This document shows, piece after piece, positions 7,170 through 8,588 of a stretch of DNA of 64,000 nucleotides. Below the pieces are notes generated by a model. It was not told the origin of the DNA. It ran no database searches and saw only the letters and a list, made by a program, of their open reading frames with translations. The stretch comes from Escherichia phage Mizar: the sequence record PV714129.1; one strand, written 5' to 3'. The translations under genes were made by a program, and so were the position numbers. How positions within the stretch are numbered: position 1 is the first letter of the stretch; every line of letters begins with the position of its first letter.

Positions 7170-8588
7170 TTATGGATATGTATAGATGATACCAGTTTCC
7201 AAAGCAGTTTTATGGATGATGTATCCATTACGTGATTCTTGAACATCAACTTCTGGATAGTCTTCCATCATCTTCTGAAGAGTGTAACGATGCAGGTAGT
7301 ATTTACTATCTGGATCTTCAGTTTTCCAATCTTTACCTTCTTCAGTCATTTTTTGGATTTCATCCATAACCCACCAACCGCACCAGATGTAAGCTGAAGT
7401 ACGATGTGGAAGAGGATGAACATAAGGTAATTCACCTTCTGGTTCTGGAGCAACTTTATCGGTTACCTGAACTTGACCTTCTGCTGTAATAGTTTTGCTA
7501 TCATAGTCATCTGCAGTAACGATGGCAGTCACTTCAATAGTTTGACTTCCAACAGATGAAGTATCAACGGTATATACATTAGTTGACCCTTCTACAGGAG
7601 AAGAATCTTTCTTCCATGAATATTCAATTTGCGCTTCTTCTGGAGCATCAGTGACATTAGCGGTAAATGTAGCTGAAGCATCTTGCTGAACGTTAATAGA
7701 AGGAGGAGTCAATGTAACCTGTGGATTCATTGACTTCTTATTAACCGTTAATGATACTTCATTAGAAGTAACTTCCTTTTCATTGTAATTTTCAGCAGTT
7801 ACTTGGGCTACGCATTTAATTCTTTTTACTCCACTTGTAGTTGGAGTATAATTAAATGTAGAGTTAGTTTCTCCACCAACTTGTGAATCATCTACATACC
7901 ACTGATACGTAGCAGACGCTCCAGCCGGTTGAGAAGCTAAGGCAGCAGTAAATTGAACTGGGGTTCCAATTACTCCAGCTGAAGGACTATCAGGAGTTAC
8001 TGCCAAGGTAGTTGTCTGTGTCTTTTTATTAACAGTCAGTGATACTTCATTAGAAGTAACTTCTTTTGTGTCATAGTCTGTTGCCGTCACTTGGGCTACA
8101 CATTTAATTTTTTTAACTCCGCTTGTGGTAGGAGTGTAATTGAATGTAGCAGAAGTTGCTTCGCTCACAGGAGAACCGTCAACGTGCCATTGATACGTAG
8201 CAGATGCGCCTGACGGTTGAGAAGCTAAAGCCGCAGTAAATTTAACAGCTGTTCCGATTACTCCAGCAGCAGGGCTATCAGGAGTTATAGCCAGAGTAGT
8301 TGTCTGAGTTTTATTTTTAACTGTGATAGTTGCAGTAGTTTCTGCTGTTTCAGCTTCAGCTTCTGGAACTGTATTTGTTGCAACTACTTTAATAGTCTTT
8401 TGACCGGCAGGTCCTTTTAGTACATAACTAAAAGTTGCTTCAGCTCCATCTTGCGGAACACCATCCAAAGTCCAAGCATATGTAATAGTTCCACCTTCAG
8501 CCTGACCACTAGGTGTGGCAGTAAACTGCTGGGTCTGTCCTATAACTCCAGTAGGTGTTTTAGGATTTATATTAACTGTAAAAGCCAT
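7170..8588 (-). CDS. hoc: Highly immunogenic outer capsid protein Hoc with four Ig-like repeats
   Basis: 472 aa; N- and C-terminal regions match recalled T4 Hoc (PEPEGELPYVHPLPHR...WCGWWVMDEIQ); internal 96-aa domain present twice. Confidence 0.9.
   Translation of the reverse strand: MAFTVNINPKTPTGVIGQTQQFTATPSGQAEGGTITYAWTLDGVPQDGAEATFSYVLKGPAGQKTIKVVATNTVPEAEAETAETTATITVKNKTQTTTLAITPDSPAAGVIGTAVKFTAALASQPSGASATYQWHVDGSPVSEATSATFNYTPTTSGVKKIKCVAQVTATDYDTKEVTSNEVSLTVNKKTQTTTLAVTPDSPSAGVIGTPVQFTAALASQPAGASATYQWYVDDSQVGGETNSTFNYTPTTSGVKRIKCVAQVTAENYNEKEVTSNEVSLTVNKKSMNPQVTLTPPSINVQQDASATFTANVTDAPEEAQIEYSWKKDSSPVEGSTNVYTVDTSSVGSQTIEVTAIVTADDYDSKTITAEGQVQVTDKVAPEPEGELPYVHPLPHRTSAYIWCGWWVMDEIQKMTEEGKDWKTEDPDSKYYLHRYTLQKMMEDYPEVDVQESRNGYIIHKTALETGIIYTYP
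7737..8312 (-). repeat. Tandem duplication of a 288-bp segment encoding an Ig-like domain inside hoc
   Basis: Two consecutive 96-aa units (TQTTTLA[IV]TPDSP...EVSLTVNKK) about 85 percent identical; DNA repeats visibly similar at 7737-8024 and 8025-8312. Confidence 0.85.

What the first reader, a model, noticed from the sequence alone, without database searches (positions are those of the whole stretch)
7737..8312. Hoc has four Ig-like domains through a recent tandem duplication
Hoc here is 472 aa against about 376 aa recalled for T4 Hoc (three Ig-like domains plus a capsid-binding domain). Residues 93-188 and 189-284 are two adjacent copies of the same domain, about 85 percent identical at protein level with clearly similar DNA. 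A longer Hoc fibre changes capsid surface display and possibly adherence to mucus or cells. The high identity makes this an unstable, recombination-prone array.
Basis: partly seen in the sequence, partly recalled or inferred. Interest (0 to 1): 0.5.

Follow-up and report, generated by a model that had tools for sequence, protein, structure and literature searches.

The report
Four-Ig Hoc: old, common domain repeat
The capsid fibre protein Hoc of this T4-like phage does carry an extra immunoglobulin-like domain as a tandem repeat, but the two copies are ancient and the four-domain form occurs in about 40% of sequenced relatives, so it is an ordinary, already deposited variant and not a recent duplication.

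Summary
Residues 93-188 (unit A) and 189-284 (unit B) are an exact in-frame 96-aa / 288-nt tandem repeat.

"Recent" and "unstable" are not supported:
- Synonymous divergence between the units is near saturation (dS 1.10, dN 0.107). That is about three times the dS between this phage and T4 in the rest of hoc (0.37).
- Each unit has a much closer counterpart in another phage. The first 198 nt of A are identical to the single domain 2 of TH12. B is 98.3% identical to the single domain 2 of RB5.
- In 0 of 62 units from two-unit Hocs is the partner in the same protein the nearest relative.

Hoc comes in a 376 / 472 / 568 aa series with 1, 2 or 3 units. About 248 of 636 phage records carry at least two units, in both Tequatrovirus and Mosigvirus. 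Unit types A, B and C always appear in that order.

The likely effect is a fibre one Ig domain longer with a second domain-2 surface; this is inferred. Variation in Hoc domain number is already in the literature. Interest is low.

The parts
7170..8588 (-). hoc CDS, 472 aa plus stop codon
   Evidence: ORF. Phmmer to T4 Hoc (5vf3_Z) gives E = 4e-215. It lies between inh and 24.3/24.2/rnlB, as in T4.
8313..8588 (-). Ig-like domain 1 (residues 1-92)
   Evidence: Aligns to T4 Hoc residues 1-92. The AF2 model shows a beta-sandwich with pLDDT about 85-93.
8025..8312 (-). Domain-2 unit A (residues 93-188), type A, central loop motif 'GSPVSEATSA'. This is the unit T4 lacks.
   Evidence: HMM score 194 bits. 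It is 100% identical to FP43 unit 1, and its nt 1-198 are 100% identical to the single unit of TH12. PKD/Ig Pfam hits.
7737..8024 (-). Domain-2 unit B (residues 189-284), type B, central loop motif 'DSQVGGETNS'. This is the counterpart of T4 domain 2.
   Evidence: Aligns to T4 Hoc residues 93-188. Nucleotide identity is 91.0% to T4 and 98.3% to the single unit of RB5. PF00801 PKD best stretch is 195-267.
7461..7736 (-). Ig-like domain 3 (residues 285-376)
   Evidence: Aligns to T4 Hoc residues 189-280. Ig_3 and I-set Pfam hits at 289-373. AF2 beta-sandwich with pLDDT about 90.
7173..7460 (-). C-terminal capsid-binding domain (residues 377-472)
   Evidence: Almost identical to T4 Hoc residues 281-376, the domain shown to bind the gp23 hexamer centre (PMC10385173, PMC9958956).

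Best explanation
This is the hoc gene of a T-even phage; the nearest relative is Mosigvirus FP43. It carries the common two-unit allele of a copy-number-variable Ig-like domain 2.

Hoc in Tequatrovirus and Mosigvirus is built as domain 1, then one to three 96-aa domain-2 units, then domain 3, then the capsid-binding domain. That gives proteins of 376, 472 or 568 aa. The units belong to old, distinct types (A, B, C) that differ mainly in surface loops, and they always occur in the order A, B, C. The window has A-B.

The duplication that produced A and B is ancient. By synonymous divergence it is older than the divergence of this hoc from T4's. Both copies have since been kept under purifying selection.

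Inferred steps:
- Present-day differences in copy number among close relatives probably arise in two ways. One is ordinary homologous recombination that swaps hoc segments between co-infecting phages. The other is occasional unequal crossover in the conserved ends of the units.
- Functionally, each of the 155 Hoc fibres per capsid would be one Ig domain longer, roughly 4-5 nm added to the 18 nm of T4. Each would also display a second variant of the domain-2 surface, adding reach and binding or antigenic diversity for adherence to mucin glycans or cells.
For: Identity and architecture:
- Hoc identity and the position of the extra unit.
- Four Ig-like beta-sandwich domains in series: mean pLDDT 84, about 90 over the four domains; Foldseek hits to four-Ig strings such as Dscam1 and ICAM-5 D1-D4.
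- Length series: 376 aa in 73 clusters, 472 aa in 29 and 568 aa in 7, plus a few of 377-379, 468, 567 and 570 aa. These correspond to 1, 2 or 3 HMM-defined units.

Frequency:
- The A-to-B junction peptide matches at 80% identity or more in 248 of 636 phage records. In the records listed, that identity level goes with two or more matching places per record.
- The unit DNA finds 890 places in 616 records.

Age and selection:
- dS 1.10 and dN 0.107 between A and B, against dS 0.37 for D1 and D3-C versus T4.
- Differences by codon position are 15 / 8 / 40.
- 13 of the 18 amino-acid differences lie outside beta-strands (Fisher p = 0.016).

Copies are not each other's nearest relatives:
- 0 of 62 units have their own partner as nearest relative. 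Window A is 98% identical to the single units of P0057 and 97% to P0053. Window B is 99% identical to the single unit of P0115 and 98% to RB5.

Collinear arrays: B 54, A 23, C 4, A-B 25, A-C 3, B-C 1, A-B-C 6, A-B-B 2, and no inverted order.

Recombination:
- The single unit of TH12 equals window A at 198/198 nt, then switches to a B-lineage tail (93% to the tail of moskry unit 2, 82% to the tail of A).
- Within hoc, D1, the units and D3-C each have different nearest relatives.
- Among the 60 nearest relatives over 6 kb (95-97.6% identity), 3-Ig and 4-Ig alleles are interleaved. FP43 (4 Ig) and SHSML-52-1 (3 Ig) belong to the same species.

Literature:
- Hoc homologues carry from 1 to 10 Ig-like domains (PMC10385173).
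- A two-Ig variant binds MUC2 through S183-L184-T185 of domain 2 (PMC11853027). That motif is present in both units here.
Against: - No experiment here shows that the four-Ig Hoc assembles on the capsid or changes adherence.
- The dS estimate comes from only 96 codons and is near saturation, so 'older than the Tequatrovirus/Mosigvirus split' is approximate. It could also be confounded by horizontal exchange of units between lineages.
- The A/B/C typing rests mainly on a 10-residue loop motif. Outside residues 41-60 of the unit the types are barely distinct at protein level (87% between types, 88% within).
- The TH12 chimera can also be explained by in-register recombination between an A-only and a B-only allele, so it does not prove unequal crossover.
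- The protein sample is the best 120 of 891 clusters, not an exhaustive census.
Confidence: 0.85

Rival explanations
1. One reading: a recent tandem duplication of domain 2 that arose in this phage lineage and forms an unstable, recombination-prone array.
For: Exact in-frame 288-nt tandem repeat. T4 itself has one unit. Close relatives differ in copy number.
Against: - dS between the copies is 1.10 and the longest perfect match is only 24 nt.
- Each copy has a 98-100% identical counterpart in other phages.
- The same A-B arrangement is found in hundreds of genomes of two genera.
- No two-unit Hoc in the sample has copies more than 85% identical.
Confidence: 0.03
2. The units are old but the junction is young. 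The A-B array of this lineage was assembled recently by out-of-register recombination between two co-infecting phages, one carrying an A-only hoc allele and the other a B-only allele.
For: - A-only alleles (TH12, P0057) and B-only alleles (RB5, P0115) nearly identical to the window's units exist.
- Unit A of this allele is rare at DNA level: 8 records reach 90% or more. Unit B is common: 344 records reach 90% or more.
- hoc is clearly mosaic.
Against: - Array order is always A before B before C. Of the 32 two-unit sequences (window plus 31 clusters), 25 are A-B, 3 A-C, 1 B-C, 1 A-A and the other 2 pair A with an untyped unit; none is inverted. One inherited array explains this more simply than repeated de novo assembly, which should also give B-A.
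- FP43 shares the identical array.
- First units resemble first units of other phages, and second units resemble second units.
Confidence: 0.1
3. Assembly artefact: a mis-assembled repeat has inflated a three-Ig hoc.
For: Tandem repeats are a known source of assembly errors.
Against: - The copies differ at 63 of 288 positions, so reads map unambiguously.
- The reading frame is intact.
- Both copies show purifying selection.
- The identical structure occurs in the independent genome FP43 and in about 248 other records.
Confidence: 0.01

Closest known systems
T4 Hoc (highly immunogenic outer capsid protein, 376 aa; PDB 5vf3, 8t1x; RB49 Hoc Ig domains 3SHS)
   Same: - Same gene position, between inh and 24.3.
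- Domain 1, domain 3 and the capsid-binding domain are collinear and highly similar to T4. The stretch from unit B to the C-terminus (residues 189-472) aligns to T4 Hoc 93-376 without gaps at E about 1e-166, and unit B matches T4 domain 2 at 91% nt.
- String-of-Ig fibre architecture.
   Different: One additional 96-aa domain-2 unit (type A) is inserted between domain 1 and the T4-like domain 2, giving four Ig-like domains.
472-aa Hoc of other Mosigvirus and Tequatrovirus phages (FP43, moskry, RB27, wV7, PST, slur02, PP01, AR1 and others)
   Same: Same four-Ig architecture with an A-B unit order. FP43 is 99.1% identical in nucleotides, with both units identical. The moskry GenBank record already annotates a repeat_region inside hoc.
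   Different: Only allelic differences. The particular A allele of the window is uncommon at DNA level.
Other Hoc length variants: PNJ-9 two-Ig Hoc, 568-aa five-Ig Hoc (UGKSEcP1/2), Serratia phage Muldoon ten-Ig Hoc
   Same: Same principle: a conserved capsid anchor carrying a variable number of Ig-like domains (PMC10385173, PMC11853027).
   Different: Different number and identity of the domains. In a more distant lineage (loci L005, L006) the domain-3-like domain is duplicated instead, at 58% identity, so expansion has happened independently.

Membership tests
Hoc (T4-type head outer capsid decoration protein) | C-terminal capsid-binding domain homologous to T4 Hoc residues 281-376 | tested here: met
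   Residues 377-472 are almost identical to T4 Hoc 281-376. The whole-protein E-value is 4e-215.
Hoc (T4-type head outer capsid decoration protein) | N-terminal linear string of Ig-like (PKD / I-set) domains | tested here: met
   Pfam PKD, PKD_3, PKD_4, Ig_2 and Ig_3 hits. The AF2 model has four beta-sandwich domains at pLDDT about 90. Foldseek top hits are multi-Ig strings.
Hoc (T4-type head outer capsid decoration protein) | Conserved genome position between inh and 24.3 / rnlB, next to uvsW | tested here: met
   The window ORFs rnlB, 24.2, 24.3, hoc, inh and uvsW follow the same order as in the T4 record.
Hoc (T4-type head outer capsid decoration protein) | One monomer bound at the centre of each gp23 hexamer (155 per capsid); dispensable in the laboratory | not testable with these tools
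   Known for T4 (PMC9958956, PMC10385173). It needs cryo-EM or genetics for this phage.
Recent (young) tandem duplication | Copies nearly identical, with low synonymous divergence | tested here: not met
   78% nucleotide identity, dS 1.10, longest perfect run 24 nt.
Recent (young) tandem duplication | The two copies are each other's closest relatives, and the duplication is confined to this lineage | tested here: not met
   0 of 62 units have their own partner as nearest relative. Two or more units occur in about 248 of 636 records across two genera.
Mucus-adherent Ig-like capsid display (BAM model) | Binding of Hoc Ig-like domains to mucin glycans (fucose on MUC2) | not testable with these tools
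   Only sequence-level hints. The S-L-T motif reported as the MUC2 contact in PNJ-9 domain 2 (PMC11853027) is present at 183-185 and at 279-281. T4 D246 (PMC11853027, citing Chin et al.) corresponds to the conserved D342.

The most novel reading that the evidence does not exclude
Domain 2 of Hoc in T-even coliphages is an ordered cassette array of three ancient unit types (A, B, C). The types are maintained across Tequatrovirus and Mosigvirus as a long-lived polymorphism. Every collinear subset (A, B, C, A-B, A-C, B-C, A-B-C) segregates in nature, and selection acts on fibre length and on the combination of loop surfaces, for example for different mucin glycans or to escape antibodies. I found no paper in the searched library that describes this pattern.
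Probability: 0.35. Interest if true: 0.4.

Novelty: already known. Interest (0 to 1): 0.15.

Why it matters
Hoc is the displayed surface of T4-like phages. It mediates adherence to mucus and is the main scaffold for phage display and vaccine work. Natural Hoc comes in versions with one, two or three copies of domain 2, with distinct loop types, and this is useful when choosing or engineering therapeutic phages and when interpreting differences in mucus binding. For this window specifically, the result is corrective. The four-Ig Hoc is a common, old and stable allele, not a fresh or fragile duplication, so it needs no special follow-up.

Tried and rejected
- A blastp self-comparison for internal repeats returned nothing, probably because of how I parsed the output. 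I replaced it with an HMM of the unit and pairwise alignments.
- The junction-peptide tblastn could not separate one-unit from two-unit genes by coverage, because the start of domain 3 aligns weakly to the start of a unit. I used the identity bands and the places-per-record figures instead.
- The search for related loci in viral contigs gave only 21 loci, few of them close relatives. I took DNA of close relatives from GenBank phage records instead.
- Strict 'diagnostic site' typing left only one fully diagnostic residue, position 48. The types are therefore defined by the central loop motif, with the caveat that the unit flanks are mosaic.
- Literature searches for an explicit description of the 376/472/568 series or of a domain-2 duplication found none. 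They found only general statements that the number of Hoc domains varies.
- Assembly artefact and concerted evolution were considered and rejected.

Full report
**1. What is there**

The minus-strand ORF at 7170-8588 encodes a 472-aa protein. It lies between inh (8598-9266) and 24.3 / 24.2 / rnlB (6874-7080, 6626-6877, 5499-6506), next to uvsW (9317-10831). This is the gene order of the T4 hoc region. Against solved structures the protein matches T4 Hoc (5vf3 chain Z, 376 aa) at E = 4e-215. The match comes in two pieces: query 1-113 to T4 1-113, and query 189-472 to T4 93-376. The protein is therefore Hoc with exactly one extra 96-residue segment.

The repeat finder and TRF both report a 288-nt tandem repeat with two copies, 78-79% identity and TRF score 725. 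In codon register the units are:
- residues 93-188 = 8025-8312, called A here;
- residues 189-284 = 7737-8024, called B here.

Protein identity is 78/96 = 81% and DNA identity is 78.1%.

Pfam finds PKD and Ig families across the N-terminal 376 residues. An AlphaFold2 model (mean pLDDT 84, about 90 over residues 1-376) shows four consecutive beta-sandwich domains followed by the helical C-terminal domain. Its best Foldseek hits in the PDB are strings of Ig domains, such as the four N-terminal Ig domains of Dscam1 and ICAM-5 D1-D4.

**2. Is the duplication recent? No**

Differences between A and B by codon position are 15 / 8 / 40. Nei-Gojobori estimates are dS = 1.10 and dN = 0.107. The remaining parts of hoc (domain 1, and domain 3 plus the C-terminal domain) give dS 0.37 between this phage and T4, which belongs to another genus. 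The two units are thus roughly three times more diverged at silent sites than the two genera are in the same gene. Both have been kept under purifying selection (dN/dS about 0.1). The 18 amino-acid differences fall mainly outside the predicted beta-strands: 13 in 43 non-strand positions against 5 in 53 strand positions, Fisher p = 0.016.

Each unit also has a far closer relative elsewhere than its own neighbour:
- Unit B is 98.3% identical in DNA (dS 0.04) to the single domain 2 of RB5 and 91% identical to that of T4.
- The first 198 nt of unit A are 100% identical to the single domain 2 of Mosigvirus TH12.
- At protein level, A is 97-98% identical to the single units of clusters P0053 and P0057, and B is 98-99% identical to those of P0105 and P0115.
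- Among 62 units from two-unit Hocs, none has its own partner as nearest relative.
- Identity between the two units of one protein is 56-85% (median 79%) in the 31 two-unit proteins compared.

There is therefore no sign of a young duplicate or of concerted evolution anywhere in the sample.

**3. How common is it?**

A search of 5.8 billion proteins returned Hoc relatives in a clean length series:

| Length | Clusters | HMM-defined units |
|---|---|---|
| 376 aa | 73 | 1 |
| 472 aa | 29 | 2 |
| 568 aa | 7 | 3 |

A few near-variants of 377-379, 468, 567 and 570 aa make up the rest of the 120.

In the GenBank phage collection, a peptide spanning the A-to-B junction matches at 80% identity or more in 248 of 636 records, about 39%. 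In the records listed, that identity level coincides with two or more matching places per record. The unit DNA finds 890 places in 616 records. That is consistent with roughly 60% one-unit, 36% two-unit and 4% three-unit genes; this split is a rough estimate.

Two-unit Hoc occurs in both Tequatrovirus (RB27, wV7, PST, slur02, PP01, AR1) and Mosigvirus (FP43, moskry). The nearest relative of the window, FP43 (Mosigvirus shsm521), is 99.1% identical over hoc, with both units identical. SHSML-52-1, of the same species, has the 376-aa form. Among the 60 closest relatives over 6 kb (95-97.6% identity), three-Ig and four-Ig alleles are interleaved. The moskry GenBank record even annotates a repeat_region inside hoc.

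**4. Structure of the variation**

The units can be typed by their central loop (unit residues 47-56):
- A: 'SPV.EAT.A'
- B: 'SQV.GET.S'
- C: 'SLVDGETTTT'

Typing the 121 sequences this way gives the following arrays:

| Array | Count |
|---|---|
| B | 54 |
| A | 23 |
| C | 4 |
| A-B | 25 |
| A-C | 3 |
| B-C | 1 |
| A-A | 1 |
| A-B-C | 6 |
| A-B-B | 2 |
| partly untyped | 2 |

The order is always collinear; B-A, C-A and C-B are never seen. The types are sharply distinct in residues 41-60 (65-70% identity between types, 85-97% within). They are hardly distinct at protein level in the unit flanks. Nearest-neighbour typing outside the motif still agrees in 142 of 167 cases.

At DNA level the units of different phages are mosaics of A-like and B-like tracts. 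The clearest case is TH12. Its single unit equals window A over nt 1-198 and then switches to a B-lineage tail, 93% identical to the tail of moskry unit 2 against 82% to the tail of A. An unequal crossover collapsing an A-B array would leave this product. An in-register exchange between an A-only and a B-only allele would give the same sequence, so this is suggestive only.

Within hoc, domain 1, the units and domain 3 plus C-terminus each have different nearest relatives. This shows pervasive homologous recombination within the gene. That alone can explain why close relatives differ in copy number, without assuming the array is intrinsically unstable. Three observations argue for stability:
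- The longest perfect match between A and B is 24 nt.
- The A-B order is conserved.
- FP43 kept both units unchanged while its domain 3 plus C-terminus diverged by 2.3%.

From my own knowledge, not tested here: T4 recombination falls off steeply below about 50 bp of homology.

**5. Beyond this group**

In a more distant lineage (loci L005 and L006, 472 and 471 aa, about 49% identical to the window Hoc), the extra domain is a copy of the domain-3-like domain at 58% identity. Relatives of 373-377 aa (L007-L010, L012) and of 282 aa (L011) also exist. Expansion and loss of Hoc Ig domains is therefore recurrent.

The literature already says so:
- Fokine et al. 2023 found 650 Hoc homologues with strings of Ig-like domains, ranging from one domain to ten in Serratia phage Muldoon (PMC10385173).
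- Wu et al. [quoted passage not shown]
- Fu et al. 2024 characterised a two-Ig variant (PMC11853027).

I found no paper that describes the 376/472/568 series or the A/B/C order specifically.

**6. How it most likely works**

Shown here: a Hoc with four Ig-like domains and an intact capsid anchor.

Established for T4: one Hoc binds the centre of each gp23 hexamer through the C-terminal domain, and 155 fibres of about 180 Å project from the head (PMC10385173, PMC9958956). The Ig-like domains bind mucin glycans, with fucose as the preferred ligand (PMC11150434, PMC11853027).

Inferred:
- The extra unit lengthens each fibre by about one Ig domain, roughly 4-5 nm.
- It adds a second domain-2 surface with different loops.
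- The S-L-T motif reported as the MUC2 contact in PNJ-9 domain 2 occurs in both units (residues 183-185 and 279-281), so binding valency may double.

None of this can be tested with sequence tools.

**7. Verdict**

The feature is a common, already deposited allele of a known, variable protein. Novelty: already known. Interest: low. The one mildly new point is the ordered A/B/C cassette pattern across two genera. It deserves a proper phylogenetic census before anything is claimed.

Noticed in passing
window 7737-8312; proteins P0001-P0120: Domain-2 units fall into three loop types (A, B, C). They occur only in collinear arrays (A, B, C, A-B, A-C, B-C, A-B-C, A-B-B), never in inverted order. This looks like an ordered cassette array with all deletion derivatives present.
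   Followed up: partly
L028 (TH12, MT446390) hoc unit versus window 8025-8312: The single domain 2 of TH12 is 198/198 nt identical to window unit A. It then switches to a B-lineage tail, giving an A-head / B-tail chimera compatible with collapse of an A-B array.
   Followed up: partly
L023 (FP43, MN648445) 1501-2919; cluster P0016: Public misannotations of this Hoc. The FP43 record calls it 'baseplate wedge subunit', and one 472-aa cluster is named 'endonuclease [Shigella sonnei]'. Several clusters come from E. coli or Shigella assemblies, presumably phage contigs in bacterial assemblies.
   Followed up: no
window 9267-9316 (inh-uvsW intergenic): The window has no homing endonuclease gene between inh and uvsW. 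T4 and RB5 carry segE there, and LF82-41 carries another homing endonuclease.
   Followed up: no
L005, L006, L011 (IMG/VR contigs): In a more distant T4-like lineage the 472-aa Hoc arose by duplication of the domain-3-like domain (58% identity). A 282-aa form lacks domain 2 altogether. These are independent gains and losses of Ig domains.
   Followed up: partly
window 7170-8588 versus L022-L029: hoc is strongly mosaic. Domain 1 is 98% identical to TH12 and LH01 but only 82-83% to SHSML-52-1 and RB5. Domain 3 plus C-terminus is 97.7% identical to SHSML-52-1 and 95.4% to RB5. Unit B is 98.3% identical to RB5, a Tequatrovirus. This implies recent exchange between genera.
   Followed up: partly
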